Positions 12,182 to 63,760 of a DNA stretch of 64,000 nucleotides are shown in pieces. A program made the position numbers and the translations under genes. This DNA is from an uncultured Erysipelotrichaceae bacterium. GTDB lineage: Bacteria; Bacillota_I; Bacilli_A; Erysipelotrichales; Erysipelotrichaceae. Every line of letters starts with the position of its first letter. Position 1 is the stretch's first letter. Location of the stretch: contig OMXQ01000006.1 of the NCBI GenBank assembly GCA_900315065.1, positions 7,100 to 71,099 of the forward strand, read 5' to 3'. The notes below the pieces were generated by a model that did no database searches, had not been told where the DNA came from, and was given only the letters and a program-made list of their open reading frames with translations.

Positions 12182-12266
12182 TTCTTAGTCTTTTTCTTAG
12201 TCATTTCGTTTCTTTCTTGGTCATTTTATAAAAAATGACTAAGAAAGGCTGAAGATGACAAAGAAA
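12182..12266. repeat. Dyad array of TTTCTTDGTCAT boxes
   Basis: Forward boxes 12193-12204 and 12213-12224, inverted boxes 12235-12246 and 12255-12266, partial box 12182-12190. Confidence 0.8.
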
Positions 12267-12372
12267 GAAAATTACACATTCCGCATCAGAATAAGTAAAA
12301 TGATGATGCGAAAGCGAACCGATTAAGGAATGTCATATTCCCCATTCGACGATAATTATTGGAGAAACAGAA

Positions 12373-12555
12373 ATGCATAAACTTACTGATAAACAATATG
12401 AAGAGTATCAACGTCTGTGCTATGCCCGGGACCACGGAAGATTATTGACACCGGATGGACTGCGGTTTATCTGCGAAGCCTGTGAGTATGATCCTGAAAA
12501 AATAGGAAAACATTTTCTGGAAGTGCTGCCAAAGATACTCTGTGAAGATAAATAA
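12373..12555 (+). CDS. Small conserved-looking hypothetical protein (60 aa)
   Basis: GGAG SD; MHKLTDKQYEEYQRLCYARDHGRLLTPDGLRFIC reads as a real protein. Confidence 0.6.
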   Translation: MHKLTDKQYEEYQRLCYARDHGRLLTPDGLRFICEACEYDPEKIGKHFLEVLPKILCEDK

Positions 12556-12621
12556 GAAGCAGATGACTTATACATTGGCGGATGAATGCCTGAGAGGATT
12601 GGAAAAATTCAGTCTTCTCTT

Positions 12622-13962: not shown

Positions 13963-14068
13963 AGTTGATTTCTCCTGCTTTCATTATAGTGGAATTTACC
14001 CTGTCGTTTTGAAAAAAAAGGTTGCACGGAACATACCCGCTATGATAATATATTCGAGCACCATTGAT

Positions 14069-14145
14069 GGCAAGTTGGTGAAGCGGCTTAACACACCGCC
14101 CTTTCACGGCGGCACTCACGGGTTCGAATCCCGTACTTGTCACCA
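14069..14145 (+). tRNA. tRNA-Glu (TTC)
   Basis: Cloverleaf; anticodon arm CCGCC-CT-TTC-AC-GGCGG; GGTTCGAATCC T-arm; encoded CCA. Confidence 0.95.
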
Positions 14146-14152
14146 TTTTATT

Positions 14153-14226
14153 AGGGGTATCGTACAATGGTAGTACATCGGTCTCCAAAACCGCTGATGG
14201 GAGTTCGATTCTCTCTACCCCTGCCA
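14153..14226 (+). tRNA. tRNA-Trp (CCA); prophage integration target
   Basis: AGGGGTA acceptor stem, TCGGT-CT-CCA-AA-ACCGC anticodon arm, encoded CCA. Confidence 0.93.
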
Positions 14227-14227
14227 T
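14219..14227 (+). repeat. att core CCCTGCCAT (left junction, tRNA-Trp 3' end)
   Basis: Identical 9-mer at 48447-48455; joining the two restores a longer integrase ORF followed by a terminator. Confidence 0.8.
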
Positions 14228-14326
14228 GTGAACCGAAAACGAACTCCATATATGGCGTTCCGGTATATATAGGTGCCGGCATAGTCTCGATCGTGAAATA
14301 TTTCGATCGCGCCAGAACCGCAAATT

Positions 14327-14347
14327 AAGCCCGTACGCGGGCTTTTT
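14327..14347 (+). terminator. Intrinsic terminator (integrase terminator in the circular phage; tRNA terminator in the lysogen)
   Basis: AAGCCCG-TACG-CGGGCTT-TTT. Confidence 0.8.
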
Positions 14348-14423
14348 AATTTATATGGGCAATTCTCCGTCCGGCGTGAATATCAAGCGCTGCCGCTGAA
14401 ATCTGCCGGCACTATGGCCGCAA

Positions 14424-14458
14424 AATAAAAAAAGCCGGCAAGCTGATTACCTGCCGGC
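14424..14458 (-). terminator. Terminator of the late/lysis operon
   Basis: GCCGGCA...TGCCGGC hairpin with an A tract on its left (U tract on the - strand). Confidence 0.65.
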
Positions 14459-14462
14459 GTTC

Positions 14463-14762
14463 TTATACTGCTGTTTTCTTTGCCATGATTTCATCGTGGA
14501 TCTTGTCACCGGTATGGTTGAACCCTAAACCGTGATAAGCCTGCCACAAGCTGTCCATTTCTTCCTGTGTCCGGACTGGTACTTCCTCAGCATCACGATA
14601 CTGATCATAAATTTGAAACATATCGTTGCGGAGAAGTGCACCGAGCGCGTCGTGCTCTGCTTTGTTTGCCGTTTTTACCTGTCTCAGCCTTGCAGCAAAG
14701 TAGCCGAGTAGTGCCGATACGACCGTGGACCATATCGGTGAGAGTAACTGCCAAAAGTTCAT
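14463..14762 (-). CDS. Lysis-cassette membrane protein (one N-terminal TM, LLRND...YHGLGFNH motif)
   Basis: 99 aa; directly downstream of the holin. Confidence 0.6.
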   Translation of the reverse strand: MNFWQLLSPIWSTVVSALLGYFAARLRQVKTANKAEHDALGALLRNDMFQIYDQYRDAEEVPVRTQEEMDSLWQAYHGLGFNHTGDKIHDEIMAKKTAV

Positions 14763-14998
14763 TATTCAGCACCACCGTTCCCGTCGTACTGTTCCTTTTT
14801 TGCTTCCTCGTAGGCTTTCACGCTCATGCCGATGCATGTTGCCACGAATCCGCCAAGGGCACCGCAGATCGTCGTCGCGACTGCAGTATGCTGCCAATTT
14901 ACTGCGATCCCAACGACACCGATAAAGGTTGTCAGGCCGGGAATAAAATAAATGGCCAGCCATTTAAGAAAATCATAAACTTTGTTCGATAACTTCAT
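14762..14998 (-). CDS. Holin, Dp-1 family
   Basis: MKLSNKVYDFLKWLA start, two TM helices, charged C-terminus. Confidence 0.85.
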   Translation of the reverse strand: MKLSNKVYDFLKWLAIYFIPGLTTFIGVVGIAVNWQHTAVATTICGALGGFVATCIGMSVKAYEEAKKEQYDGNGGAE

Positions 14999-15008
14999 AA
15001 GTATGTCC

Positions 15009-15956
15009 TCATGCTTTCTTGATATCTTTCAAATACATTTCAGCCCAGGTAATCCTTTTCCCTGAACGCTCCGCCTGCAGAACAGCTTTATCTCCATTGA
15101 TTTCGGAAATATAGTAAACATTATCGTACTGCGTCAGTCTCACGCCTGAAGTGTTTACCAGATTCACCGGCACCACCTGATCGCCAACTTTGAATGATTC
15201 TGCAGATGATCCGTTCGACGCGGTTGTAACGTAAACGTCATAGCCTGCAGCTTTCAGGATAGCGGCAGTATTGTTCGCATTGCTTTTGATCTTAAACGCG
15301 CCGGTCTGCACTTTCCAAAGCCCGCCGACATTTACCAGATAAGTGCTGTATCCGTCAGCCTTCAGTTTCTTTTCAAGTGCCTGGGCGTTTGCTTTTTCTT
15401 TGAAGGCTCCAACCTGAACGCGGTAAAGAACATCTGCAGCCGGCGTATCTGATCCAGCCAGTTTCTTATTTACCTGCTCAACAATGTACGGAAATTTTGC
15501 TCCGAGATAAGGGCCCGGGCACGCTGTTGACGCATACCACTTATGCATATGCAGGTTGGATCCGGCCTTTGTTCCGTCGAAATACAGCTTTTTGATTCCG
15601 TTTCTCTTGCAGATATCTGTCACCAGCTCAATGAGCCGGCGCATGACATAATCGGATACCGGCCAACTTCCGCCGTTTTCGCTGTTTGATACTTCGATCG
15701 TGATTGCGCGCTTGTCAATTTCCCAGCTTGATGTTGTCCACGGTCTCATGCTTTCATCGACATACTGGCCGATCCGGCCGTCCGATCCGATACCGTAAGT
15801 GCACGATCCTGTGCGTCTCAGCAATACATTTCCGAGTGTTTCCAGGCTCAGAACTCCGGCGCAGTGATGGATAACAATACGATCGATCTTGTTACCCTGG
15901 CGGCTGCTGCAGTTTCCGATCAGCCGCCTGTACTGTACTAATGAACTGTTACTCAT
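15009..15956 (-). CDS. Endolysin: Amidase_2 domain, two SPOR repeats, C-terminal SH3-like segment
   Basis: IDRIVIHHCAG, AITIEVSN, HKWYASTACPG; YRVQVGAF and WKVQTGAF SPOR repeats; start placed at MSNSSLV. Confidence 0.88.
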   Translation of the reverse strand: MSNSSLVQYRRLIGNCSSRQGNKIDRIVIHHCAGVLSLETLGNVLLRRTGSCTYGIGSDGRIGQYVDESMRPWTTSSWEIDKRAITIEVSNSENGGSWPVSDYVMRRLIELVTDICKRNGIKKLYFDGTKAGSNLHMHKWYASTACPGPYLGAKFPYIVEQVNKKLAGSDTPAADVLYRVQVGAFKEKANAQALEKKLKADGYSTYLVNVGGLWKVQTGAFKIKSNANNTAAILKAAGYDVYVTTASNGSSAESFKVGDQVVPVNLVNTSGVRLTQYDNVYYISEINGDKAVLQAERSGKRITWAEMYLKDIKKA

Positions 15957-52431: not shown

Positions 52432-53502
52432 ATGCAATTTGAAAGAGAAACAGCTGAGCATCTGGTCAGCTGGTACGACAAAAACAAAAGGAAGCTGCCA
52501 TGGCGGGATACCGGCAATCCATATGATGTCTGGATTTCGGAAATCATGCTGCAGCAGACCAGAATCGAAGCAGTCAGAGACAAGTATGCCTTATTCAGGA
52601 AAGAACTTCCGACGATTCAGGATCTTGCAGCATGTGAAGATGACAAGCTCATGCGGATCTGGGAAGGGCTGGGCTATTATTCCAGAGCCCGCAACCTGAA
52701 AAAATGTGCGCAGATTCTGGTAGAGAAATATGAAGGAAAACTGCCGGCGGACGTTGAAAAACTGAAATCTCTGCCCGGCATCGGCCCCTATACAGCCGGA
52801 GCAATCGGTTCGATCTGTTTTGGTTTGCCGGTCTATGCAGTGGACGGCAATGTCTTACGGGTTCTGGCAAGATATTTTGAAATCCGGGATGATGTCCGTG
52901 ATCTGAAAACTGTGTCAGAAATCAGAGATACGCTGCGCAGTATTTATGAAAACAAAGAACCTTCTCCTTTCTTTTCAGCCCTGAACCAGGGATTGATGGA
53001 ACTGGGAGAAACTTTATGTGTACCGAATGGTCTGCCCAGGTGCGGGGATTGTCCTTTGAAGAATCGGTGCAGAACCCATGCAAAGGGATGCTATGAAGAA
53101 ATTCCTTACAGGTCTCCTCTGAAGCCGAGAAAGATTATCAACAGAACACTGCTGGTCATCCGGGACGGGGATTCTTTCCTGCTTCATAAAAGATCTGCTT
53201 CCGGCCTGCTTGCCGGTCTGTATGAATTTCCAGGCGTCGATCAGACCTTGACGAAAGAAGAAGTGGAAAAGGAAACGGAAAAGATGAACTTTGAACCATT
53301 GTGCATCAAAGCACTTCCTGATTCCAAACACATCTTCACTCATCTTGAATGGCACATGAAAGCATATGAAATCACGGTGTCGGAGATCCATTCCAAGGGC
53401 AGCTCTTATGTGCTTGCCAACAAAAAAGAATTGTCACAACTGGCAATTCCTTCTGCGTTTAAAACGTATATTGACTGGTACTCGCTCAGAGATCAGAAGT
53501 GA
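52432..53502 (+). CDS. mutY: A/G-specific adenine glycosylase
   Basis: VWISEIMLQQT, WEGLGYYSRARNL, LPGIGPYTAGAI, VDGNVLRV, CX6CX2CX5C Fe-S motif, NUDIX-like C-terminus. Confidence 0.95.
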   Translation: MQFERETAEHLVSWYDKNKRKLPWRDTGNPYDVWISEIMLQQTRIEAVRDKYALFRKELPTIQDLAACEDDKLMRIWEGLGYYSRARNLKKCAQILVEKYEGKLPADVEKLKSLPGIGPYTAGAIGSICFGLPVYAVDGNVLRVLARYFEIRDDVRDLKTVSEIRDTLRSIYENKEPSPFFSALNQGLMELGETLCVPNGLPRCGDCPLKNRCRTHAKGCYEEIPYRSPLKPRKIINRTLLVIRDGDSFLLHKRSASGLLAGLYEFPGVDQTLTKEEVEKETEKMNFEPLCIKALPDSKHIFTHLEWHMKAYEITVSEIHSKGSSYVLANKKELSQLAIPSAFKTYIDWYSLRDQK

Positions 53503-55979
53503 TGCTTAGGTCCCTGTCCCATACCGGCAAAGCGGACAAATGGTGCCTGAACTTCCTGGGCGGCTTTGACAGCGGCAGTTCCCTGCGGCTTGATGCCTCT
53601 CGGGTTGCGCGGATCCCTGCGCTTGGATTTATTGGAATTTGAAGCAGATGCAGATTTCTTTTCTGCATTCTGCTTTTTATTGTGCTTCGGATTGTTCTGC
53701 TTTGCGTGAGTTTCTTTCTTTGCAGCTGCAGAAGCAGACTGATTCTTCTGCTTCTTCTGATTGTTATTGTTCTTCGGGACAGCAGTTTTTCTGCTGTCTT
53801 TTTCGTTTCTGTTCTGCTTTTGAGAAGCAGCTTTCTCAGGTGTCTTTTTCGGAGTCTGTCTGTTTTCTTTGCCTGCGTGTTCATGCTTTGGAGTGCTCTT
53901 TGCAGGCCTTGCGTCTTTCTTTTCTGCTTTGGCTTTTCTGTTTTCAGCAGTTTCTTTCTTTGCCTTCGGTTTTCTGTTTCTGCCTTCGGCATGCCATGCG
54001 GCTTCATTATCACCGCCCCTGTGCAGTAAGAAACGGGCTGCTTCATTGGCATTGGCGAAAGTATAGGACTGGGTGAACTGGATTCTGCCGTCCTTGTTTT
54101 CAGAGAGAACGCCCTGGTCTATCAGAGCAGCGAAGAGAGTTCTCATCTTTTTCATTTCATTAGGACCGTAAGCTTTCATCATGGTGCCTGCCTGTACTTC
54201 GGTTTTCCCGTTATTATGGATCAGGGCATGGGCGGAAACGGTCGGAGCATTGAGAGTAACGATTGTATCTGTGATTGGATTCATGCGTTTTGTTTTCTTC
54301 TGTATTCCTTTCTCATGGGTGGAAATCCGGTAAGGCCAGATGGTCAGAATCTGATCTGCCATTTTGTCTGTACGCATCAGAATTTCCTTTTTATTCCATT
54401 GTTTCTTCTGCAGGATTTCCGTATTGAGACGGATGTGAAGAGTTTCCTGCAGAATCTTTTTCTTATATTGGAAGTCTTCATTGCCGATCTTTGTGTTGTC
54501 ACTGACTGCACAAAGCGTCAGGTTGCCGATCAGGTTGACCAGCTGGCTGTATTCTTCCTCATCTGCTGCCCCGCTGTTTTTCTTCCAGTAAGCATTGGGG
54601 TTCTGCGGCATGATGTGTTCAATATTCAGGGCCCTGAGATCAACCCTGGCGGATGCACCGTTGTATTCCAGTCTTTCCAGTACCTGTCTGATTAATAATG
54701 AAGAATAGGCATTGATGGTTCTCAGCTGGCTGCGTACCTGATCATCTGCCGGCATTGCCGCAAACCTGCCGCGGTTGGCATCGATGAGATTTGCGCGTAA
54801 AGCTGTTACAACATCACTTTCATTCATGGATAAAAGTACATTCTTCAATAAAGCCGGAAAGTAGCGGTTCAGAGAAGAAATATCCATGCCGCATAAAGAA
54901 CGGCGGACAAGATAGGAATCCAATAGTCTGACGATGGAAATCAGTTCCTGATCCGTAATTTCCTTTTCTTCATACAGATGCACCATTTCCATTAAGAAAG
55001 GAGCCGGCAATAAAGAAGAAGTCATCCGGAAATCCGCAAAAGCTTCTTCAACTTCAGGATCAGAAAAGTGTCCTTTATAGATCATAGAATAATATTGGCA
55101 ATACTGGTTGATTTCCTGCATGGCTTTTTCATGATTCTGGATTTGTTTCCAGTATGCCTTGAAGCCTGCATAGATATTGCGTCTGTTTAACAGCCCGAAT
55201 GTCTTTACGGCAAGATAGAAACGGAAGAATTCTTCCAGAAGGCGGGAAGACGCAAATTCTCTTTCCAGCGGCTTCCAGTACATTTTATAGAGGCGTTCCT
55301 GTTCTTCATCCTGATGATCCATCAGAATGTAATTGCGGATCAGATCCGCACTGGTTAAAGGAGCACCAGTACTGTTGATAGATTCGAATATCTGCTGGGT
55401 GTCGTCTCCTTCCTGCAAAGGAAAGGCAAGGATGTCCATTTGGGCGAAGGCTTTGAGAATTTCTTCCACCGAAGAAGATTTCAATTGTGTTCTGATCCAT
55501 TCTGATATTTTCTGATAAGAAAGGAAAAGGTTGGTTTCCCTCTCATTGCTGCTCAGATCTTTTTCAGATCCATAGACAAGACGGGCAAATACGTCTTCTC
55601 CATCCTGGGCAGTTTTCAGACGCAGGGCATTGGCACCTGTATAGAGATAGTCTTTATCAATTTTCTTCCTGAAAGAAGGATCACTTTGATCACGCAGGGC
55701 AGTCAGGAAGAGAAAAGCAGTTGTCATCCGCTGCTGGCCGTCGACCAGCTGCAGCTGCTTATGAAAATAAGAAGTTCCTGCCTGCATATAAATGACAATA
55801 CCGAGAAAATGCTCAGATTTCTGCTTTGTCAGAATTTCTTCGATATTATTGAGGAACGCTGCAGTTTCGATCTCCGGGCGCCAGGTATAGCGGCGCTGAT
55901 AAACCGGAATAATAAACTGGGAACCTGCCTGGTTTTTTATGAACCTGGACATGGACAGCCGCATCGGCTGATTGAACAT
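53493..55979 (-). CDS. GmrSD-like (DUF262 + DUF1524) restriction protein with DUF4357-like domain and basic low-complexity tail
   Basis: IPVYQRRYTW, VDGQQR, FESINSTG, NIEHIMPQ, IGNLTL; Lys/Gln/Asn-rich last ~160 aa. Confidence 0.8.
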   Translation of the reverse strand: MFNQPMRLSMSRFIKNQAGSQFIIPVYQRRYTWRPEIETAAFLNNIEEILTKQKSEHFLGIVIYMQAGTSYFHKQLQLVDGQQRMTTAFLFLTALRDQSDPSFRKKIDKDYLYTGANALRLKTAQDGEDVFARLVYGSEKDLSSNERETNLFLSYQKISEWIRTQLKSSSVEEILKAFAQMDILAFPLQEGDDTQQIFESINSTGAPLTSADLIRNYILMDHQDEEQERLYKMYWKPLEREFASSRLLEEFFRFYLAVKTFGLLNRRNIYAGFKAYWKQIQNHEKAMQEINQYCQYYSMIYKGHFSDPEVEEAFADFRMTSSLLPAPFLMEMVHLYEEKEITDQELISIVRLLDSYLVRRSLCGMDISSLNRYFPALLKNVLLSMNESDVVTALRANLIDANRGRFAAMPADDQVRSQLRTINAYSSLLIRQVLERLEYNGASARVDLRALNIEHIMPQNPNAYWKKNSGAADEEEYSQLVNLIGNLTLCAVSDNTKIGNEDFQYKKKILQETLHIRLNTEILQKKQWNKKEILMRTDKMADQILTIWPYRISTHEKGIQKKTKRMNPITDTIVTLNAPTVSAHALIHNNGKTEVQAGTMMKAYGPNEMKKMRTLFAALIDQGVLSENKDGRIQFTQSYTFANANEAARFLLHRGGDNEAAWHAEGRNRKPKAKKETAENRKAKAEKKDARPAKSTPKHEHAGKENRQTPKKTPEKAASQKQNRNEKDSRKTAVPKNNNNQKKQKNQSASAAAKKETHAKQNNPKHNKKQNAEKKSASASNSNKSKRRDPRNPRGIKPQGTAAVKAAQEVQAPFVRFAGMGQGPKHHF

Positions 55980-56245
55980 TGCATCACCCGCTTTCTGATT
56001 AATTCATGTGTGTAGTTTGAAGAAGATCTCTTCATTTTGGAAATTTACAGGGGAGCAGCAGGAATTATTGTGCTTTGTCTGTCTCAGAAGAAATTTCCCT
56101 TCGTGCGTCTTTCTTTTTCTGCACGGCAACGCAGGTATTATAACGACATTGTCACGACTTTGCAAAAATATCCGTGGAAATATTGTTTGTTAAGCGCTTT
56201 CCTGAATTGCCTTATGGTAAACTTATAGTAAGGCAGGTGACTGTA

Positions 56246-56800
56246 ATGGCTAAAATGAAAATTACAAATGATATGGAATACTGGCAGCTCAAGGAAGACT
56301 ATGCTAGAAGTCTTCTTGCCGTAAGAAATGAAGCAGATAAGAAAAAGAAGAAGCAGCTGGAAAAAGAATCCAATGAAATGAACAAGGTTCTTTCCAGCTA
56401 TGAAAAGAAAAAGATCAAGGGTGCCCGTGATCAGCAGAAGGAAGAAGAAAAGCGTCTGAAGATCAGAGAAAAAGAAACTGCAGACAAGAAGATTTTCTTC
56501 GAAATATCTGCAATTGAAGCCAAGTACATTGACTATGCTTCTTTGACAAAGATCCAGCGCAACAAGCTTTCCGTCAAGAAGGAATCCATGATTGAAGCCA
56601 TGAAGAAGGGCATGTATATCAGGCTCAAAGGAGATTCGGGCCTGTATCAGATCAAGCAGAGCGAAAAGCGGATGAACGGCATGCGGTATGTTTCCACTGT
56701 TGTTTATGGAGATGTACCGATTCAGGATGTAGCTTTGATTATCATTGCGTATTATTACGAAAAGGAAATTGAAACAGCCGGTCATCTTGTCAGTGACTGA
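56246..56800 (+). CDS. Hypothetical Lys/Glu-rich protein
   Basis: AGGCAGG SD-like upstream; coiled N-terminal half. Confidence 0.6.
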   Translation: MAKMKITNDMEYWQLKEDYARSLLAVRNEADKKKKKQLEKESNEMNKVLSSYEKKKIKGARDQQKEEEKRLKIREKETADKKIFFEISAIEAKYIDYASLTKIQRNKLSVKKESMIEAMKKGMYIRLKGDSGLYQIKQSEKRMNGMRYVSTVVYGDVPIQDVALIIIAYYYEKEIETAGHLVSD

Positions 56801-56953
56801 TGTTTCCGATGCGGACGATATGTCCGCTTTTTTTGTGCGTTGGAAGGAATCAGATAGAAAAAATATAAAAAAGCAAAATAATCAGAAAAGCCAGAAATAT
56901 TTCAGCATTTTCATAAATAAATTCCGCTAATTAGAATAAAAACAGAAATTATA

Positions 56954-56982
56954 TTGACGAAATACGTTTTAAAAACTAAATT
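56954..56982 (+). promoter_or_regulatory. Promoter of four-gene operon
   Basis: TTGACG-17-TAAATT. Confidence 0.55.
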
Positions 56983-57006
56983 TTATGGATAAAGGAGAAA
57001 TTCATT

Positions 57007-57960
57007 ATGAAAGTGCTGATTTCAGATTTTCCAGCTGCTCTTGCCCCGGACAGTGAAATTCAGAAAAAGAATCTGCACAGTCAGTTTCCCGATTGGCAGA
57101 TTGAAATCTGGCCGTATAACGGAAACCAGAATGAATTGACAGATCACGTCAGGGACGCAGATGCAGTATTGACGGCATTTATGCCGATGAATGCAGAGGT
57201 CATCTCGGCAATGAAGCCGGGTGCCTGTATCTCTGTGGCAGCTACCGGCTATGATTCCATTGATGATGCCGCAGCTGAAGAACACAAAGTTGCCCTTATG
57301 GCGATCCGGGAATATTGTACGGAAGAAGTTGCAGAACACACGATTGCCTTATTGCTCGGCTTATGCCGGCATCTGAAGGATACGGATGCTGATCCGGCTG
57401 CTTATCAGACCCTGAAAGGAAAGAAGATCGGTATCTTCGGCTATGGCAGAATCGGTCAGAGAGTCGGCCAGCTGGCAGAAGCATTCCGCATGGAAGTGTA
57501 TGTATCAGCCTTTGGCAGAGTGTCTTCTTATATTAACAGGGTTGTTGCGGATGCAGATACGGTTCTGAAAGAATGCGATGTCATTACCTGCCACATGCCG
57601 GAAACACCGGAAAATCATCATTATTTCAATTTCTCAAGATTTCAGGAAATGAAGAAAAAGCCGATCTTCCTCAATTGCGGAAGAGGCGGTCTGGTAGATA
57701 CAGATGCGCTTGTAAAAGCACTTGAAGAAGGCTGGATCAGCGGGGCCGGCATTGACGTCATCGAGGATGAACACGAAGGAAGTGCTTCTTCCCAAAAGCT
57801 CAGCAGCTTTACGAATGTCCTGGTGACACCCCACAAGGCTTATGCATCTGAAGCTTCCTGCAAAGCTCTGCAGGATATTCCGGTGGATAACATCGTCGCT
57901 TATCTCACACATAAATATGGAAAGATCAACGCTTTCGTGAAAGGACCATACCATGATTGA
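57007..57960 (+). CDS. D-isomer-specific 2-hydroxyacid dehydrogenase
   Basis: GIFGYGRIG, LNCGRG, GAGIDV, VTPHKA. Confidence 0.88.
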   Translation: MKVLISDFPAALAPDSEIQKKNLHSQFPDWQIEIWPYNGNQNELTDHVRDADAVLTAFMPMNAEVISAMKPGACISVAATGYDSIDDAAAEEHKVALMAIREYCTEEVAEHTIALLLGLCRHLKDTDADPAAYQTLKGKKIGIFGYGRIGQRVGQLAEAFRMEVYVSAFGRVSSYINRVVADADTVLKECDVITCHMPETPENHHYFNFSRFQEMKKKPIFLNCGRGGLVDTDALVKALEEGWISGAGIDVIEDEHEGSASSQKLSSFTNVLVTPHKAYASEASCKALQDIPVDNIVAYLTHKYGKINAFVKGPYHD

Positions 57961-59533
57961 TACTGAAGCATTGCGATATGCAAAACAACTGGTTTCCATC
58001 AACTCAGTCAATAACACGGAAGGAGAAAGCAGAATTGCTGATTGGATCGAAGATACCCTGAGATCTTTTGCCTATTTTCAGAAGCATCCTGAGTATGTTA
58101 TTGCTCAGCCTTTGAAAAATGACAGATACGGCAGAAAAAATATCCTTGCTTTTGTGAAAGGTGAAAAAGGAAACAAGCCGGATACATTGATCTTCCATGG
58201 TCATATTGATACGGTCGGCATTGAAGACTTCGGGCCTTTGAAAGAATGGGCCTGTGATCCGGATGCTTTGCAGGAAAAGATGCTGGAAAGCAACATTCCG
58301 GACGCTTTGCGCAAGGATCTTGAAACCGGTGATTATATGGTCGGCAGAGGCAGCTGTGATATGAAGAGCGGGGATGCTGTCAATTTGTCGCTGCTGCATG
58401 AATTGTCTGAAAATCCGGAAAGCCTCAGCGGCAATGTTCTGGTCATGTTCAATCCGGTCGAAGAAAATCTGCATACAGGCATGGTGGAAAGTCTTGATGT
58501 CCTGCTTGATCTGAAAGAAAAATACGGCTTTGATTACAAGCTTGCGATCAATAATGACTTTACCTGTCCGGGGGATGAATCAGATAAGAAAGTAACTCTC
58601 TATGCAGGCATGGCAGGCAAGCTGCTTCCTTGTTTCTATATTCAGGGAGCAGAAACTCATGTCGGCCAGCCTTTTGAAGGCTTGGACGCAGCCGAAACAG
58701 CAGCGCGTCTGGTTTCGCTGATCAGCCGCAATCCTGCATATGCGGATACCTGGCTGGAGGAAACATCCTGTCCTCCGACTGTTCTGAAGATGAAGGATCT
58801 CAAAGAACATTATGATGTACAGACATCGAAAGATGCCTTTGTTTATTTCAATTATTTTGTCCATAATGCTTCGCCTTCTGCTGTCATTGCCCAGTTGAAA
58901 AAAGCTGCCGGCAAGGTCCTGCAGGAACGGGAAGAAGATATGAAATCCTATGCATTTATCTGGTCAGGAAAAGATGCGCGTACCTTTGAACCATGTGTTT
59001 ATTCTTTTGAAGAACTGGCAGCGAAGGAACCTGACGTGGATGTCAATGCAGAAATCCGGGCAGAGATAGAAAAAGGAACAGACGCAAGAGAAGCAGCCAT
59101 TCCTGTCATCCGCAGATTGCTTGGCAAGGCCGGCATACATCAGCCGTGCGTGGTGCTGTATTTTGCCCCGCCGTATTGTCCGCATAATGTCATTGAAGAC
59201 CCTTCCGTTATGGAAAAAATCATGGATGAAACGGAAAAGGAAACCGGTATTTCCTACCGGCTGTCTCATTTCTATCCAAGTCTTTCAGATTCCAGCTACA
59301 TTGCCATGGATGATGATGAAAAAGAACTTGAAGTTCTGAAGAACTCTTTCCCGGGCATGGATGTCATATATCCGCTGCCTTTTGAAAAAATACATGCTTT
59401 ATCCATTCCGGCAGTGAATTTCGGCTGCTATGGAAAGGACGCCCACAAGTGGACGGAAAGAGTAAACGTACCATATACATTCGGCATTCTGCCAATATTG
59501 ATGCGCAATGCTGTTAAAGCGTTGCTTGAATAA
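57953..59533 (+). CDS. rocB: M20 metallohydrolase, RocB-like
   Basis: HGHIDTVGIEDFG, GRGSCDMKSG, PVEEN, HVGQPFEG, GKDAHKWTER. Confidence 0.75.
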   Translation: MIDTEALRYAKQLVSINSVNNTEGESRIADWIEDTLRSFAYFQKHPEYVIAQPLKNDRYGRKNILAFVKGEKGNKPDTLIFHGHIDTVGIEDFGPLKEWACDPDALQEKMLESNIPDALRKDLETGDYMVGRGSCDMKSGDAVNLSLLHELSENPESLSGNVLVMFNPVEENLHTGMVESLDVLLDLKEKYGFDYKLAINNDFTCPGDESDKKVTLYAGMAGKLLPCFYIQGAETHVGQPFEGLDAAETAARLVSLISRNPAYADTWLEETSCPPTVLKMKDLKEHYDVQTSKDAFVYFNYFVHNASPSAVIAQLKKAAGKVLQEREEDMKSYAFIWSGKDARTFEPCVYSFEELAAKEPDVDVNAEIRAEIEKGTDAREAAIPVIRRLLGKAGIHQPCVVLYFAPPYCPHNVIEDPSVMEKIMDETEKETGISYRLSHFYPSLSDSSYIAMDDDEKELEVLKNSFPGMDVIYPLPFEKIHALSIPAVNFGCYGKDAHKWTERVNVPYTFGILPILMRNAVKALLE

Positions 59534-59553
59534 CAACAGAGGAGGAAACCCAT

Positions 59554-60777
59554 ATGGATAAGTGCATTGAAGTCAGACCGGAAGTAAAAAAAGTTCATGC
59601 TTCCATCATTCGGGAATTTGCAGCGGCTATATCGCTTCTTGATGACGGCGTAGATCTGACGCTCGGCCAGCCTGATTTTCCGACCCCGGAAAGAGTCAAG
59701 CAGGCGGCGGAAAGAGCAATGCTGGAAAACAAGACCGGCTATACGGAAGATGAAGGTCTGAAAGCATTGCGGGAAGAAGAAAGCAGGTATCTTGAACGCA
59801 ACTTCCATCTTTCCTATCATCCGGAAAATGAAATACTGGTAACCGTCGGCGCCACTCAGGCAATTGACTGTACTTTGCGCACTATTCTCAAAGCTGGTGA
59901 TAAAGTTCTGATTCCTTCTCCGATTTATTGCGGGTATGATCCGATCCTGCATTTTATCGATGCAGAGCCTGTGTATGTGGATACATCTTCCGCTGGCTGC
60001 AAGATCACCCCGGATCTTTTGGAAAAGGCATGGAGCCCGGAAGTAAAAGCAGTCATTCTGACTTATCCGAACAACCCGACAGGGGCATGTCTGAATGAAG
60101 AAGAAACGGATGCATTGGCTGACTGGTTTATGAAGCATGATGATGTATGCATTATTCTTGATGAAATCTATGCAGCCCTTCGTTTTGACGGGGATTATTG
60201 TTCCCTGGCTCAGTATCCGGAATTCAGAGACAGACTGATTCTGATTACCGGCGTCTCCAAAGCTTATTCGATGACGGGCTGGAGAATCGGCTTCTTATGT
60301 GCACCGGAAGATCTCATTCATGAAATCTTCAAAGTCCATCAGAATGAAATCAGCTGCGCCTGCAGCATTTCCCAATATGCTGCTTTGGAAGCTGTAAAAA
60401 AAGACGATGAAACACTCATGATGCGGGATGAATACAGGAAGCGAAGCACTTATATGTATGAGTCTTTCCGCAAGCTGGGCGTACCGGCTGTAAAACCGGA
60501 AGGGGCTTTTTACCTGTTTGCAGATATCAGTCAGTTCGGTATGTCTTCCTATGATTTTGCAAGATTGCTGCTGGAGAAATACCATCTTGGCTGTGTGCCG
60601 GGCAGTGCTTTTGAAAACAGCGGCGAAGGCTATATCAGATTATCTACGGCAGCTTCCATGGAAAAGCTTCGTGAATTTGTTTCGAGATTTGAAAGATGCG
60701 TCAATGACTTAAGGGGGAACAATTATGGCAACATTGCAGATGTATATGGATCAGAGCCGGATCAGAAATACCTTTGA
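59554..60777 (+). CDS. PLP-dependent aminotransferase class I/II
   Basis: LGQPDFPTP, YPNNPTG, DEIY, SKAYSMTGWRIG. Confidence 0.92.
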   Translation: MDKCIEVRPEVKKVHASIIREFAAAISLLDDGVDLTLGQPDFPTPERVKQAAERAMLENKTGYTEDEGLKALREEESRYLERNFHLSYHPENEILVTVGATQAIDCTLRTILKAGDKVLIPSPIYCGYDPILHFIDAEPVYVDTSSAGCKITPDLLEKAWSPEVKAVILTYPNNPTGACLNEEETDALADWFMKHDDVCIILDEIYAALRFDGDYCSLAQYPEFRDRLILITGVSKAYSMTGWRIGFLCAPEDLIHEIFKVHQNEISCACSISQYAALEAVKKDDETLMMRDEYRKRSTYMYESFRKLGVPAVKPEGAFYLFADISQFGMSSYDFARLLLEKYHLGCVPGSAFENSGEGYIRLSTAASMEKLREFVSRFERCVNDLRGNNYGNIADVYGSEPDQKYL

Positions 60778-61714
60778 TTCGCCGGTTTACAGAGAAGTCT
60801 GGGGAAAAGGCTTCGGCGTTGACAATGCCGTTGGTGAAATTCAGAAAATTCTGGTACACCGGCCAGGCAAAGAACTGGAAGACTGGAAAGACGGTGTCTA
60901 CGTGGAAGAAGCAGGCAGCCAGATTCTCTTTGATGAAAAGGGAAGAATCCGTTCTTATCTCAAAGGAAAGGAACCGATCAATCTGCCTTTGATGCAGAAG
61001 CAGCACGATGCTCTGACAGAAATCCTGCGCAGAGAAGGCATTGAAGTATTGAATCTGGATGATCCGACTTACCAGTGGACCAATCTGACTTTTGCAAGAG
61101 ACGTTGCTCTGATGACCCCGAATGGAGCCATCCTGACCCGTTTTGCCATGTATTTCCATCAGGGAGATGCTGTCGCTGCCCAGAATTTCTTTACCAGGCA
61201 GGGCATTCCGATTCTTGGTGCCATTCAGGGAAGAGGCACAGTAGAAGGCGGTGCTTTCTGTCTGCTGGATCCGCATGTTGCAATCGTGACAAGAAGCGTC
61301 AGAGTCAATGATGAAGGCATTGAACAATTGCGAAATCTGCTTTCTTATCAGGACATTGATCTATGGGTACTGGACATGCCGGCTGCGTATATTCATCTTG
61401 ATGAAGCATTTGTACCGGTTGACAAGGATAAGATCCTGGTATCCACCTTTATTCTGCCGGAGTGGTTCTTAAAGAAACTGCAGAACAGAGGCTATAAACT
61501 CATAGAAACAGATCCGCTGGATCCGCCTTTAACCAATAACTGCCTGGCGATCAGACCTGGTACGGTTGTCTTCAATGCCCATGGCACCCGTACAATTGAA
61601 AATCTGAAGAAAGCAGGCGTCAAAGTCATTCCGGTTGATATTTCCGAGATTAACAGAATCGGCGGCGGCATCCATTGCGCAACCCTTCCTCTGCTCAGAA
61701 AGTCCGTTTATTGA
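60725..61714 (+). CDS. Amidinotransferase/DDAH/arginine deiminase superfamily enzyme
   Basis: FARD, VEGG, HLD, GGGIHCATLPL (catalytic Cys). Confidence 0.85.
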   Translation: MATLQMYMDQSRIRNTFDSPVYREVWGKGFGVDNAVGEIQKILVHRPGKELEDWKDGVYVEEAGSQILFDEKGRIRSYLKGKEPINLPLMQKQHDALTEILRREGIEVLNLDDPTYQWTNLTFARDVALMTPNGAILTRFAMYFHQGDAVAAQNFFTRQGIPILGAIQGRGTVEGGAFCLLDPHVAIVTRSVRVNDEGIEQLRNLLSYQDIDLWVLDMPAAYIHLDEAFVPVDKDKILVSTFILPEWFLKKLQNRGYKLIETDPLDPPLTNNCLAIRPGTVVFNAHGTRTIENLKKAGVKVIPVDISEINRIGGGIHCATLPLLRKSVY

Positions 61715-61796
61715 TCAACAGAAAAAGAAAGACTGCAGAATCATCACTTATTTCATTAAAGTGATGATGCCGCAGTCTTTTTTCTATCTGCTGTTT

Positions 61797-61985
61797 TCAG
61801 AAGTGTTCGTAAAAAGGTGTCTTGTTGTATGCGTATAAACGGGAAACAAGTTCACCATCGGAAAGCTTGCTGATCGGGCCGATCAAACGATCCAGGTGAA
61901 CCATAAATTCACCAAAGCTGCAGTCATTGAATGCTTTGTAATGGATTTCCTCAAGTAGTTCGTAGATATTCTGTCTGTCGCTCAT
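61797..61985 (-). CDS. Small hypothetical protein (62 aa)
   Basis: GCAGGA SD; acidic sequence. Confidence 0.45.
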   Translation of the reverse strand: MSDRQNIYELLEEIHYKAFNDCSFGEFMVHLDRLIGPISKLSDGELVSRLYAYNKTPFYEHF

Positions 61986-62229
61986 ATTCCTGCTCCTTTG
62001 TTTTTTCTATATTTCTGACGCTTTCGATTATAACACACTTTGTTCTGCTTACAGGAAAGCTGCACATTTCGTATAGTAAACCGGATGACAAAAAATCAGC
62101 AGAATCAAAATATAAGTAACAAAAATACAAATATAGGAAAAGAAATAAATAAAATTAACCGGTTTACCTTGAAAGAAATGAACACATTCCCTATAATTGA
62201 ATAAGAAAGAACACACTAAAGGAGGAAAT

Positions 62230-63099
62230 ATGGAAAATATTCTCGACAAATTCAAACTTGACGGGAAAGTTGCCTGGGTAACAGGTGCTTCCTACGGACT
62301 TGGTCTGGCATATGCCACGGCATTTGCTCAGGCTGGCGCAAAGATTGTCTTCAATGACATCAATCAGGAACTGGTTGACAAGGGACTGGCTGCATACAAG
62401 GAAAGAGGCATTGAAGTATATGGCGCTGTATGCGATGTGACAGATGAAGATGCAGTCGCAAAGTTCGTGGCTGACGTAACTGAAAAATTCGGCGGCATCG
62501 ACATTCTGGTAAACAATGCCGGCATCATCAAGAGAATCCCGATGATCGAAATGACAAAGAAACAGTGGGATCAGGTTATCTCTGTTGACCTGACGGGTCC
62601 GTTTGTCTGCTCCAAGGCTGTATTGCCTGGCATGATCAAAAAGGGCTCCGGCAAGATTATCAATGCCTGCTCTATGATGTCTGAACTCGGACGTGAAACC
62701 GTATCGGCTTACGCTGCTGCCAAGGGCGGCCTGAAGATGCTGACAAGAAATATCTGCTCTGAATACGGCCAGTACAATATCCAGTGCAACGCAATCGGTC
62801 CCGGCTACATTGCTACACCGCAGACGGCTCCTTTGAGAAAGAGACAGGCTGATGGTTCCATGGCACCATTCGATCGTTTCATCCGTTCCAAGACCCCGGC
62901 ACAAAGATGGGGGACTACCGAAGACTTAATGGGTCTTGCTGTATTCCTTGCTTCCCCGGCTTCTGATTTCATCAACGGCCAGGTGGTTTATATTGACGGC
63001 GGCATTACTGCTTACATCGGCCAGGATCCAAGCCAGCTTGATGAATCCAAATTTGCACAAGTCAGAGAAGACGATACTGTTACTGTAGGCGACAAGTAA
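62230..63099 (+). CDS. Gluconate 5-dehydrogenase / DhuD-KduD-like SDR
   Basis: TGASYGLG, NNAG, SELGRETVSAYAAAKGG, GPGYIAT. Confidence 0.88.
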   Translation: MENILDKFKLDGKVAWVTGASYGLGLAYATAFAQAGAKIVFNDINQELVDKGLAAYKERGIEVYGAVCDVTDEDAVAKFVADVTEKFGGIDILVNNAGIIKRIPMIEMTKKQWDQVISVDLTGPFVCSKAVLPGMIKKGSGKIINACSMMSELGRETVSAYAAAKGGLKMLTRNICSEYGQYNIQCNAIGPGYIATPQTAPLRKRQADGSMAPFDRFIRSKTPAQRWGTTEDLMGLAVFLASPASDFINGQVVYIDGGITAYIGQDPSQLDESKFAQVREDDTVTVGDK

Positions 63100-63121
63100 T
63101 CCGGCCGAAAAGGAAAACAAA

Positions 63122-63760
63122 ATGAGAATTGCATTAATCAATGAAAACTCCCAGGCAGGCAGAAATTCTGTTATCTGTAATGCTTTGAAGGAAGTTGCTG
63201 AGCCGATGGGTCACCAGGTTGTCAACTACGGCATGTACAGTGCGGATGATGCTGCCCAGCTGACGTATGTTCAGAATGGTATTCTGGCGGCCGTATTGCT
63301 GAACAGCGGTGCTGCTGATTTCGTTGTGACAGGCTGCGGTACCGGGGAAGGGGCAATGCTGGCGCTGAATAGTTTCCCTGGCGTTATCTGCGGCCACATC
63401 GAAGATCCGCTGGATGCTTATACATTCTCCCAGATCAACGCCGGCAATGCCGTTTCTATCCCGTATGCTCTGAAGTTCGGCTGGGGCGGTGATCTGAACC
63501 TGAAGTACATCTTTGAAAAGCTGTTCTGTGAAGAAGCAGGCGGAGGATATCCGAAGGAAAGAGCAGTACCGGAAAAGAGAAACAAGAAGATTCTCGACGA
63601 CGTAAGAGCTGCTGCTTTCAAGGATCTTCCGACGATTCTGAAGGCTTTGGATAAGGATCTTGTAAAGGGAGCACTTGCTGGTGAGCACTTTGATGAGTAC
63701 TTCAAGCGTGATTGCAAGGATCCGGCTTACTTGAAGCTGGTTGAAGAGCTGAAAAAGTAA
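63122..63760 (+). CDS. RpiB/LacAB-family isomerase, DhuI-like
   Basis: MRIALINENSQ, TGCGTGEGAMLALNSFPGV, GWGGDLNL, GGYPKER. Confidence 0.82.
   Translation: MRIALINENSQAGRNSVICNALKEVAEPMGHQVVNYGMYSADDAAQLTYVQNGILAAVLLNSGAADFVVTGCGTGEGAMLALNSFPGVICGHIEDPLDAYTFSQINAGNAVSIPYALKFGWGGDLNLKYIFEKLFCEEAGGGYPKERAVPEKRNKKILDDVRAAAFKDLPTILKALDKDLVKGALAGEHFDEYFKRDCKDPAYLKLVEELKK

What the first reader, a model, noticed from the sequence alone, without database searches (positions are those of the whole stretch)
57007..61714. Four-gene operon suggesting a catabolic route for arginine or a guanidino compound
Seen: overlapping, co-oriented 2-hydroxyacid dehydrogenase, RocB-like M20 hydrolase, class I/II aminotransferase and a Cys-dependent amidino-hydrolase/transferase. 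There is no argF or carbamate kinase, so it is not the arginine deiminase pathway. Inference: guanidino to ureido (amidinohydrolase), ureido to amine (RocB-like carbamoylase), amine to 2-oxo acid (transaminase), then 2-hydroxy acid (reductase). This could act on methylarginines or homoarginine. I do not recognise this combination as a described pathway.
Basis: inference. Interest (0 to 1): 0.55.

Follow-up and report, generated by a model that had tools for sequence, protein, structure and literature searches.

The report
Arginine deiminase-like plus citrullinase-like operon
A real four-gene operon most likely strips the nitrogen-rich end off arginine (or a close relative) in two water-driven steps without making ATP. 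The two core genes lie together in 23 gut and rumen genome stretches, and I found no paper that describes them as a pathway.

Summary
Four co-oriented genes (57007-61714, + strand) have one promoter-like site, coupled or overlapping starts and a strong terminator. They encode a D-2-hydroxyacid dehydrogenase, a 526-aa M20 hydrolase of the RocB type, a class I aminotransferase and a 329-aa guanidino-modifying enzyme (GME).

The GME has an arginine-deiminase-type active site (FxRD, HLD, catalytic Cys) but lacks the helical domain of arginine deiminase. Its own kind lies within about 5 kb of the RocB-like gene in 22 other public genome stretches. In a 23rd genome a different GME subfamily sits beside the same M20. 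An aminotransferase of one of three non-orthologous kinds nearly always accompanies the pair.

Bacillus subtilis RocB is a proven citrullinase. The genome lacks carbamate kinase, ornithine carbamoyltransferase, argG and argH. In this genus, the amino-acid ABC importer that adjoins the cluster in two relatives carries a T-box with an arginine codon.

Best reading: arginine to citrulline to ornithine by two hydrolases, releasing 2 NH3 and CO2 with no ATP gain, then transamination and reduction to a 2-hydroxy acid. The first two steps are well supported by inference. The substrate and the last two steps are not shown. Methylarginines are disfavoured. This is a new variant of known kinds, and no paper describing it was found.

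The parts
56954..56982 (+). promoter-like site (TTGACG, 17 nt spacer, TAAATT) in the AT-rich 180-nt leader
   Evidence: 9 of 12 matches; a consensus scan only. It follows the upstream terminator at 56811-56827. No Rfam element was found in 55900-62300.
57007..57960 (+). D-isomer-specific 2-hydroxyacid dehydrogenase, 317 aa
   Evidence: PF02826 at 151 bits and PF00389 at 60 bits. It falls below every NCBIfam equivalog cut-off. The closest solved structures are phosphoglycerate dehydrogenase and glyoxylate reductases. It is 37-42% identical to the dehydrogenase in Lachnospiraceae clusters and 35% identical to the one beside the C. butyricum M20. The GYGRIG nucleotide loop and the GRG and TPH motifs are visible in the translation.
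57953..59533 (+). RocB-type M20 metallohydrolase, 526 aa; predicted ureidohydrolase (citrullinase-like)
   Evidence: PF01546. Homologues that are 49-52% identical over the full length are named 'arginine utilization protein RocB' by JGI and NCBI. In the 13-sequence alignment A2, H84, D86, D136, E170, E171 and H498 are invariant and D202 is nearly so; I read these as the M20 metal and catalytic residues. B. subtilis RocB is a Mn-dependent citrullinase (PMC10404663).
59554..60777 (+). class I (PatA / aspartate-aromatic type) aminotransferase, 407 aa
   Evidence: PF00155 at 205 bits; NF005817 (aminotransferase A) at 454 bits, below the 575 cut-off. The PDB matches are aspartate and aromatic aminotransferases. 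The NPTG, DEIY and SKAYS (PLP lysine) motifs and the C-terminal IRLS arginine are visible. It is 50% identical to the cluster aminotransferase of L001 and L002.
60725..61714 (+). 329-aa guanidino-modifying enzyme, a short arginine-deiminase-like hydrolase
   Evidence: PF02274 at 89 bits. R125, D126, R139, E174, R193, H224, D226, H317 and C318 are invariant in 19 sequences (A1) and near-invariant in 136. The profile alignment to ADI maps N120, FARD, E174, R193 and HLD; residues 73-158 of ADI entry 4bof (the helical domain) have no counterpart. The AlphaFold model has pLDDT 91 and matches the fold shared by NnhA, ADI, amidinotransferases and DDAH.
61725..61790 (+). intrinsic terminator closing the operon
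   Evidence: Hairpin of -30.8 kcal/mol, z = -7.36 against shuffles, followed by a U run.

Best explanation
The operon encodes an ATP-independent route that removes the guanidino group of L-arginine, or of an arginine-sized guanidino amino acid, in two hydrolytic steps.

Step 1 (inferred from active-site residues): the 329-aa ADI-like enzyme deiminates the guanidino group to a ureido group, arginine to citrulline plus NH3.

Step 2 (inferred from family and gene linkage): the RocB-type M20 hydrolase cleaves the ureido group, citrulline to ornithine plus CO2 plus NH3.

Steps 3 and 4 (inferred only from enzyme class and recurrence): the class I aminotransferase moves the alpha-amino group to a 2-oxo acid acceptor. 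The D-2-hydroxyacid dehydrogenase then reduces the resulting 2-oxo acid with NAD(P)H to a D-2-hydroxy acid, for example 5-amino-2-hydroxyvalerate.

The cell gains three of arginine's four nitrogens and a sink for reducing equivalents. It does not gain the ATP that the classical deiminase pathway yields. The order of steps 1-2 relative to steps 3-4 is not fixed by the data.
For: 1. Operon anatomy is as described.
2. The GME keeps F-A-R-D126, H224-L-D226, E174, R193, N120 and C318. Spacings match ADI as I recall P. aeruginosa ADI numbering (+6, +19, +19). The profile alignments line these residues up with ADI's FTRD, EGG, SxR and HLD.
3. PMC9007349 states that guanidino-acting members keep these two Asp, while ureido-acting CtlX has Asn.
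4. The fold is confirmed.
5. The M20 is full length with conserved metal-site residues. Homologues 49-52% identical are named RocB. RocB is a citrullinase by genetics and assay (PMC10404663).
6. Linkage: M20 and this GME are within about 5 kb in 22 of 22 assessable stretches from Lachnospiraceae and Erysipelotrichaceae. In G046 the same M20 (47% identical) sits beside a non-orthologous 280-aa GME that also keeps FSRD, HLD and Cys.
7. An aminotransferase lies in 20 of the 25 clusters, but of three non-orthologous kinds. The D-2-HADH lies in 16 of 25.
8. The genome has only this one PF02274 member and no carbamate kinase, OTC, argG or argH above cut-off.
9. In the genus sample, eight species showed canonical-length ADI frames (412-436 aa). 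The two with the short GME showed no such match.
10. Arginine link: the ABC importer that follows the cluster in L001 and L002 lies on contig C71 in this genome. In all three places it has a T-box leader. The specifier, calibrated on a tyrS T-box, reads CGC, CGC and AGA, all arginine codons.
Against: - No enzyme of this cluster type has been assayed.
- The M20 could not be compared directly with B. subtilis RocB. The only related sequences from Bacillus that I could reach are plasmid-borne M20 genes, 31-34% identical. RocB itself is very slow in vitro (Km 7.4 mM; Vmax about 30 umol per min per mmol enzyme), so citrulline may not be the family's best substrate.
- The position of ADI's second carboxylate-binding Arg (+19 from the Asp) is His145 in all 114 cluster-type GMEs but Arg in 22 distant homologues. 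This could mean a substrate altered at the alpha end.
- Giving up ATP is odd for a fermenter.
- The organism appears to be an arginine auxotroph, and its importer is switched on by arginine starvation, which sits awkwardly with arginine breakdown.
- The T-box operon is separate from the four genes. The Lachnospiraceae binding proteins are only 23-37% identical to it, so the arginine signal may not carry over.
- Most Lachnospiraceae clusters carry a GABA-type class III aminotransferase plus an Fe-alcohol dehydrogenase instead of the class I enzyme. This hints at an omega-amine to aldehyde to alcohol route that this model does not fully explain.
- C. butyricum has the M20 plus D-2-HADH pair with no GME.
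Confidence: 0.5

Rival explanations
1. The chemistry is the same (deiminase, then ureidohydrolase), but the true substrate is another guanidino compound. Candidates are homoarginine, canavanine, 4-guanidinobutyrate, or the 2-oxo or 2-hydroxy analogue of arginine. In the last case the aminotransferase and dehydrogenase would act first, and the GME and M20 would then work on 2-hydroxy-5-guanidinovalerate.
For: His145 replaces the carboxylate-binding Arg throughout the cluster-type clade. The D-2-HADH travels with the M20 even without a GME. GABA-type class III aminotransferase plus Fe-ADH genes in Lachnospiraceae clusters would suit an omega-amino acid lacking an alpha-amine. Many of the genomes come from herbivore guts, where plant guanidino compounds occur. 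RocB is poor on citrulline in vitro.
Against: The other ADI-type arginine-binding positions (N120, R193, E174) and their spacing are kept. The arginine-codon T-box on the adjoining importer points to arginine. Canaline, the expected product from canavanine, is known to poison PLP enzymes (my knowledge), which fits badly with obligatory aminotransferases. Methylarginines are unlikely because HLD, not HLK, is present.
Confidence: 0.25
2. The M20 does not act on the GME's product. It is an ArgE/DapE-like deacylase for an N-acyl or N-carbamoyl amino acid, and the genes form a looser amino-acid salvage set.
For: The only curated models it hits are ArgE/DapE deacylases, all far below cut-off. RocB-like M20 genes occur without any GME in 10 of the 12 genomes that carry one in the class sample, and on Bacillus, Clostridium and Sinorhizobium replicons in varied contexts, one beside gcvPA/PB.
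Against: Linkage with a GME is strict in the 45-55%-identity subgroup to which the window's protein belongs. It persists when the GME is replaced by a different subfamily. The one characterised family member is a ureidohydrolase.
Confidence: 0.12
3. The GME is an amidinotransferase, and the operon builds a guanidino metabolite or regenerates arginine from ornithine and an amidino donor.
For: Foldseek scores for the amidinotransferases SxtG, HsvA and AGAT are close to those for ADI. Transferases share the same Cys-His-Asp catalytic set. The nearby arginine-starvation T-box would suit arginine salvage.
Against: The company is catabolic: importer, GntR regulator and hydrolase. Sequence scores favour DDAH and ADI (1e-24 to 1e-26) over AGAT and HsvA (about 1e-7). 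The T-box does not control the four genes.
Confidence: 0.05
4. The four genes are unrelated neighbours that share a transcript by chance.
For: The gene order differs between this window (HADH-M20-AT-GME) and its relatives L001 and L002 (M20-GME-AT-HADH).
Against: The same gene families recur across two bacterial families in 24 stretches. Two gene junctions in the window overlap.
Confidence: 0.02

Closest known systems
[quoted passage not shown] 2023, PMC10404663)
   Same: A long (about 530-570 aa) M20 hydrolase of Firmicutes. Close homologues of the window's protein carry the RocB name. The predicted reaction, citrulline to ornithine, is the same.
   Different: RocB sits in rocABC, with P5C dehydrogenase and a permease, under RocR and sigma-54. 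There arginine enters through arginase, not a deiminase. Here the partner is a GME, and the downstream enzymes are a class I aminotransferase and a D-2-HADH. I could not measure identity to B. subtilis RocB itself.
Arginine deiminase pathway (ArcA-ArcB-ArcC)
   Same: The first step is deimination of arginine. The window's enzyme has the ADI-type motifs HRPGxE, FxRD, HLD and GGGxHC.
   Different: The enzyme is 329 aa against about 410 aa and lacks the helical domain. It scores 77 bits against a 489-bit cut-off for arcA. There is no OTC or carbamate kinase in the genome, so citrulline would be hydrolysed and no ATP made.
Cyanobacterial arginine dihydrolase ArgZ/AgrE (PDB 6juy, 6lrf)
   Same: The same net reaction (arginine to ornithine plus 2 NH3 plus CO2) with a GME-fold catalyst.
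   Different: ArgZ performs both hydrolyses in one GME domain fused to an ornithine cyclodeaminase-like domain. Here two separate enzymes are predicted. Similarity is weak (35 bits against a 450-bit cut-off; PDB E-value about 1e-10).
Agmatine deiminase plus N-carbamoylputrescine amidohydrolase (AguA with AguB or AguY; PMC12283126)
   Same: Identical two-step logic: a GME makes a ureido compound and a second hydrolase releases CO2 and NH3. The second enzyme is known to have been invented several times.
   Different: The substrate there is the decarboxylated amine. AguB is a nitrilase-fold enzyme and AguY an amidase-signature enzyme, not M20. The window's GME keeps R193, which aligns with Arg132 of P. 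aeruginosa DDAH, a carboxylate-binding residue as I recall it.
DDAH, and the DDAH-like Rv2323c of M. tuberculosis (PMC4569260)
   Same: DDAH is the best single sequence match in the PDB (1e-26 with the profile). Rv2323c shows that a DDAH-sized GME can be needed for growth on arginine.
   Different: DDAH has FVED and HLK where this enzyme has FARD and HLD. All DDAH models score far below their cut-offs (52-63 bits against 300-450).
CtlX, putative citrullinase of the GME superfamily (PMC9007349)
   Same: Same superfamily, and a role in an ATP-independent route from citrulline to ornithine.
   Different: CtlX carries Asn at both guanidinium-binding positions (FPNN, HTN). The window's enzyme keeps Asp at both, so it should act on guanidino groups, not ureido groups.
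Aminotransferase plus 2-hydroxyacid dehydrogenase pairs of gut Firmicutes, for example the aromatic lactate routes (from my own knowledge)
   Same: The pairing of a class I aminotransferase with a D-2-HADH to turn an amino acid into a 2-hydroxy acid and re-oxidise NAD(P)H.
   Different: Those pairs act on aromatic or branched-chain amino acids and are not linked to guanidino or ureido hydrolases.

Membership tests
Guanidino-group-modifying enzyme (pentein) superfamily | Catalytic Cys near the C-terminus, with His and acidic residues | tested here: met
   C318 within GGGIHC, H224, D226, D126 and E174 are invariant in A1 and in 134-136 of 136 homologues.
Guanidino-group-modifying enzyme (pentein) superfamily | Five-fold beta/alpha propeller fold | tested here: met
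   Model with pLDDT 91 and pTM 0.89. Foldseek probability is 1.00 to NnhA, ADI, SxtG, DDAH and AGAT, with E-values of 1e-16 to 1e-21.
Canonical arginine deiminase ArcA (TIGR01078) | Score above the curated cut-off | tested here: not met
   76.9 bits against a cut-off of 489.
Canonical arginine deiminase ArcA (TIGR01078) | Inserted alpha-helical domain (about 85 residues) | tested here: not met
   Residues 73-158 of 4bof have no counterpart; query residues 113-118 bridge the gap.
Canonical arginine deiminase ArcA (TIGR01078) | Two Asp that bind the guanidinium (FTRD, HLD) | tested here: met
   FARD (D126) and HLD (D226) align with the FTRD and HLD of ADI entries 4bof and 4e4j.
Canonical arginine deiminase ArcA (TIGR01078) | Both Arg that bind the substrate carboxylate | tested here: inconclusive
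   R193 is kept. The other position is His145 here and Arg in ADI, DDAH and 22 distant homologues. The role of these residues in ADI is from my memory of the P. aeruginosa structures.
DDAH (NF045658, NF045659, NF045660) | Score above the curated cut-off, and the DDAH-type HLK motif | tested here: not met
   52-63 bits against cut-offs of 300-450. The HLK of P. aeruginosa DDAH aligns with HLD here.
CtlX-type citrullinase | Asn in place of both guanidinium-binding Asp | tested here: not met
   Asp at both positions. The criterion is from PMC9007349.
RocB / COG4187 citrullinase family | Full-length homology to RocB-type M20 proteins | tested here: inconclusive
   49-52% identity over 99-100% of the length to proteins that JGI and NCBI name RocB. 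31-34% identity to 550-aa M20 proteins of Bacillus. No curated model exists, and the B. subtilis sequence could not be reached.
RocB / COG4187 citrullinase family | Intact two-metal M20 site | tested here: met
   H84, D86, D136, E170, E171 and H498 are invariant and D202 nearly so in 13 diverse members. Their assignment as M20 ligands is from my knowledge of the family.
RocB / COG4187 citrullinase family | Hydrolysis of citrulline | not testable with these tools
   Needs an enzyme assay.
Classical N-carbamoyl-L-amino-acid / allantoate amidohydrolases (M20, TIGR01879 type) | Match to the curated model | tested here: not met
   The model is not among the 18 NCBIfam hits at E <= 0.001.
Arginine deiminase pathway (the system) | Catabolic ornithine carbamoyltransferase and carbamate kinase present | tested here: not met
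   Best arcC match is 19 bits against a 358-bit cut-off. Best OTC match is 106 bits against 281. The genome is 96% complete.
D-isomer-specific 2-hydroxyacid dehydrogenases | Both Pfam domains above cut-off | tested here: met
   PF02826 at 151 bits and PF00389 at 60 bits. No equivalog cut-off is reached, so the subfamily and substrate are unknown.
Class I aminotransferases | PF00155 above cut-off, with the PLP lysine motif | tested here: met
   205 bits. SKAYS is visible in the translation. It is below the aminotransferase A cut-off (454 against 575).

The most novel reading that the evidence does not exclude
Gut and rumen Firmicutes carry an undescribed arginine breakdown pathway. A short deiminase and a RocB-type citrullinase replace the ATP-yielding ArcB/ArcC steps. 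Interchangeable transaminase and reductase modules then turn the carbon skeleton into hydroxy acids or alcohols. This would serve nitrogen harvest and disposal of reducing equivalents, not energy gain. It could account for arginine-dependent ammonia release in species that lack an arc operon.
Probability: 0.35. Interest if true: 0.65.

Novelty: new variant of a known kind. Interest (0 to 1): 0.55.

Why it matters
Arginine use by gut and rumen bacteria affects ammonia release, pH and competition for an amino acid that also matters to the host. If this reading holds, common fibre-degrading and butyrate-producing lineages (Agathobacter, Roseburia, Butyrivibrio, some Erysipelotrichaceae) have a route from arginine to ornithine that annotation based on the arc operon or arginase cannot see. 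It would give a second, widespread biological context to the RocB family, which has only one characterised member. It would also define a new short subfamily of guanidino-modifying enzymes. The test is simple: two purified enzymes and an ammonia assay.

Tried and rejected
Synteny therefore rests on the search for related loci, the genome search and plasmid records.
- B. subtilis RocB could not be compared directly. No tool gave its sequence, there is no curated HMM, and the PDB holds no relative. The protein atlas returned only generic M20 names.
- No riboswitch or T-box lies in the operon's own leader. The scan on L001, L009, L017 and L048 gave no guanidine riboswitch either.
- Paper searches for RocB, COG4187, citrullinase, arginine dihydrolase and the superfamily names found no description of this cluster.
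- Contexts of distant homologues on Sinorhizobium, Thermomicrobium and Fusobacteria replicons were uninformative.
- Guanidinoacetate to glycine to glyoxylate to glycolate was considered, because the dehydrogenase resembles glyoxylate reductases and a Bacillus plasmid M20 sits beside gcvPA/PB. I rejected it as the main reading, because the GME keeps ADI's residue spacing for an arginine-length substrate and the importer T-box reads arginine.
- Methylarginine (the DDAH reading) was rejected on HLD against HLK.
- The direction of gene transfer could not be settled. In the GME tree the window groups with L001 and L002 (support 97/90), sister to the Lachnospiraceae.


Full report
**1. The observation**

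Family scans give the following.
- Gene 1: a D-isomer-specific 2-hydroxyacid dehydrogenase (PF02826 at 151 bits, PF00389 at 60 bits).
- Gene 2: an M20 peptidase-fold hydrolase of unusual length, 526 aa (PF01546).
- Gene 3: a class I aminotransferase (PF00155 at 205 bits). Its nearest curated model is aminotransferase A, at 454 bits, below the 575-bit cut-off.
- Gene 4: a 329-aa protein that matches both the arginine deiminase and the DDAH Pfam models.

None of the four reaches the cut-off of any NCBIfam equivalog, so none can be given a precise name.

The genes form one transcription unit as far as sequence can show.
- The upstream gene ends with its own terminator at 56811-56827.
- A promoter-like site lies at 56954-56982.
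- Gene 1 has a GGAG ribosome-binding site.
- The stop of gene 1 overlaps the start of gene 2 (ATGATTGA).
- Gene 3 follows gene 2 after 20 nt, behind AGGAGG.
- Gene 4 starts 53 nt inside gene 3, behind GGGGG. Its N-terminus, MATLQMYM, is conserved in homologues.
- A hairpin of -30.8 kcal/mol (z = -7.4) with a U run closes the unit.

**2. The guanidino-modifying enzyme (GME)**

The closest solved sequences are P. aeruginosa DDAH and several arginine deiminases (ADI). The residues that matter are of the ADI type.
- An N-terminal HRPGKE block aligns with the ADI N-terminus.
- FARD aligns with ADI's FTRD, where DDAH has FVED.
- HLD aligns with ADI's HLD, where DDAH has HLK.
- EGG, SxRxN and GGGIHC are all kept.

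R125, D126, R139, E174, R193, H224, D226, H317 and C318 are invariant in 19 diverse homologues (A1). They are nearly invariant in 136. The roughly 85-residue helical domain of ADI is missing.

A confident model (pLDDT 91) has the fold shared by NnhA, ADI, amidinotransferases and DDAH. No solved structure is closer than that.

Price and colleagues noted that guanidino-acting members keep the two Asp of FTRD and HLD, whereas the putative citrullinase CtlX has Asn at both positions (PMC9007349). By that criterion this enzyme attacks a guanidino group, not a ureido group. The second Asp also argues against N-methylated arginines.

One difference from ADI stands out. The arginine 19 residues after the first Asp binds the substrate carboxylate in ADI and DDAH, as I recall those structures. 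That position is His145 here and in all 114 cluster-type homologues. It is Arg in 22 more distant homologues.

**3. The M20 hydrolase**

Homologues 49-55% identical over the full length are abundant in Lachnospiraceae. Several of those 49-52% identical are named 'arginine utilization protein RocB' by JGI or NCBI. In 13 diverse members H84, D86, D136, E170, E171 and H498 are invariant and D202 is nearly so (A2). I read these as the M20 metal and catalytic residues, so the enzyme should be active.

B. subtilis RocB is the first characterised member of COG4187. It is required for growth on citrulline, and the purified protein converts citrulline to ornithine with Mn2+, although slowly (Km 7.4 mM; PMC10404663).

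I could not reach the B. subtilis sequence. The family assignment therefore rests on those product names and on shared length and architecture, not on a direct alignment.

**4. Comparative genomics**

A scan of one genome per species found 24 stretches that encode a close GME relative. In all 22 that reach far enough upstream, the RocB-like M20 lies within about 5 kb. Counting the window, 25 clusters were compared. The recurrent partners are listed below.

| Partner | Clusters |
|---|---|
| Three-gene polar-amino-acid ABC importer | 21-23 per gene family |
| D-2-hydroxyacid dehydrogenase | 16 |
| PF13189 kinase-like gene | 16 |
| GntR/FCD regulator | 14 |
| GABA-type class III aminotransferase | 13 |
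| Fe-alcohol dehydrogenase | 13 (beside the class III gene in 12) |
| HisC-like class I aminotransferase | 4 |
| PatA-like class I aminotransferase | 3 (the window, L001, L002) |
| AEC-family membrane transporter | 7 |

So an aminotransferase is almost always present, but its type is interchangeable.

In a complete genome of another family of the same order (G046) the layout is: ABC importer, GntR, M20 (47% identical), a different 280-aa GME, a HisC-like aminotransferase, a class III aminotransferase and an Fe-ADH. That GME is only 28% identical to the window's, yet it keeps FSRD, HLD and the catalytic Cys. Replacement of the GME by a non-orthologous one beside the same M20 is strong evidence that the two steps are functionally coupled.

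RocB-like M20 genes also occur without a GME.
- In C. butyricum one lies divergent from a D-2-HADH that is 35% identical to the window's.
- On a Bacillus plasmid one lies between an SDR and an aminotransferase A, under a sigma-54 activator.

**5. The organism and its arginine metabolism**

The host is therefore most likely an Erysipelotrichaceae-type bacterium.

- Of 36 other species of the genus searched, only this one has a close GME.
- In a 399-genome sample of the class, only the window's genome and G046 have one, and in both it sits beside the M20.
- In a GME tree the window groups with L001 and L002 (support 97/90), sister to the Lachnospiraceae. The direction of transfer is open.
- The genome (96% complete) has no other PF02274 member. 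It has no carbamate kinase, ornithine carbamoyltransferase, argG or argH above cut-off.

The classical ADI pathway is therefore absent, and the organism probably needs external arginine. In the genus sample, eight species showed canonical-length ADI frames (412-436 aa). The two species with the short GME showed no such match.

**6. An arginine signal outside the window**

In L001 and L002 the four genes are followed by the ABC importer and a second aminotransferase. That second enzyme is of the PRK07324 type, and its next-best curated matches are the arginine-derivative enzymes GntC and VioD. In the window's genome the orthologues (55-74% identical) lie on another contig, C71.

All three importer operons are preceded by a T-box leader. 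I calibrated the specifier position on a tyrS T-box, which reads GAA-UAC-A. The three specifiers then read CGC, CGC and AGA. These are two different codons for the same amino acid, arginine.

This ties the importer that travels with the cluster to arginine. It also shows that the importer is turned on by arginine starvation and is regulated separately from the four genes. The Lachnospiraceae binding proteins are only 23-37% identical to these, so the inference should not be carried over to them without a test.

**7. The most likely mechanism**

- Step 1: the GME deiminates arginine to citrulline.
- Step 2: the RocB-type M20 hydrolyses citrulline to ornithine, CO2 and NH3.
- Step 3: the class I aminotransferase removes the alpha-amino group.
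- Step 4: the D-2-HADH reduces the 2-oxo acid to a D-2-hydroxy acid.

Steps 1 and 2 are supported by residues, family and linkage. Steps 3 and 4 are supported only by enzyme class and recurrence. The order of the two halves is open.

The net effect is harvest of three nitrogens and re-oxidation of NAD(P)H, with no ATP gain. I give the whole scheme a confidence of 0.5. From the residue and linkage evidence I put the narrower claim, a deiminase plus ureidohydrolase acting in sequence on a guanidino amino acid, at about 0.75.

The main rival (0.25) keeps the chemistry but changes the substrate. His145, the M20-dehydrogenase pairing without a GME, and the omega-aminotransferase plus alcohol dehydrogenase module of Lachnospiraceae all leave room for an arginine analogue. 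They also leave room for the 2-oxo or 2-hydroxy derivative of arginine.

**8. Comparison with what is known**

- The net reaction equals that of cyanobacterial ArgZ, which does it in one domain.
- The two-step logic equals AguA plus AguB or AguY for agmatine (PMC12283126).
- The second enzyme is the RocB type.
- The first enzyme is a new short subfamily lying between ADI and DDAH.

The operon is not an ADI pathway, not a DDAH and not a CtlX. The membership rows give the tests. Seven paper searches found no description of this gene combination. I did not test that note; it led me to the AguY paper.

**9. Verdict**

The cluster is conserved and appears undescribed, a new variant built from known kinds of enzymes. 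Substrate and end product remain untested.

Noticed in passing
G000 contig C71 (locus L051) 10340-10555 (-); L001 7445-7653; L002 6255-6463: T-box leaders lie upstream of an ABC importer plus a PRK07324-type aminotransferase (GntC/VioD-like). The specifier codons read AGA, CGC and CGC, all arginine. In this genome the operon sits on a different contig from the four genes.
   Followed up: yes
L048 (G046:C1:2974000-2993999) 5665-15440: A complete genome of another family in the same order pairs the same RocB-like M20 (47% identical) with a different, DDAH-sized GME (280 aa; FSRD, HLD and Cys kept). The cluster also holds a HisC-like aminotransferase, a class III aminotransferase, an Fe-ADH, a GntR regulator and an ABC importer.
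   Followed up: partly
L009 11000-11638 and the equivalent gene in 15 other loci: A PF13189 (cytidylate-kinase-like) gene of about 210 aa sits directly after the GME in 16 clusters, mostly Lachnospiraceae. It is absent from the window's operon. Its role is unknown.
   Followed up: no
L025 (C. butyricum pCBU1) 7702-10632; L027 (Bacillus sp. F19 plasmid) 575-13950: RocB-like M20 genes occur without a GME. In C. butyricum one is divergent from a D-2-HADH (35% identical to the window's). In Bacillus sp. F19 one lies in a cluster with a sigma-54 activator, gcvPA/PB, an SDR, aminotransferase A and an amino-acid ABC transporter.
   Followed up: partly
window 53493-55979 (-): A GmrSD-family type IV restriction enzyme (both Pfam domains) carries a basic Lys/Asn/Gln-rich low-complexity C-terminal tail of roughly 190 aa. 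The tail coincides with a strong AT-skew dip (-0.42).
   Followed up: no
window 56174-56800 (+): A 208-aa Lys/Glu-rich ORF has its own terminator and matches nothing in Pfam or NCBIfam. A 215-aa ORF overlaps it on the opposite strand and is probably spurious.
   Followed up: no
window 61797-61985 (-): A small ORF of about 62 aa with a good AAAGGAG ribosome-binding site lies between the operon terminator and the next gene. I read it by eye.
   Followed up: no
window 62197-63760 (+): A gluconate 5-dehydrogenase-type SDR (451 bits, above the 369 cut-off) is followed by a PRK09273 RpiB/LacAB-like protein with DUF3666. This is probably a sugar-acid module unrelated to the operon.
   Followed up: no
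   Followed up: partly
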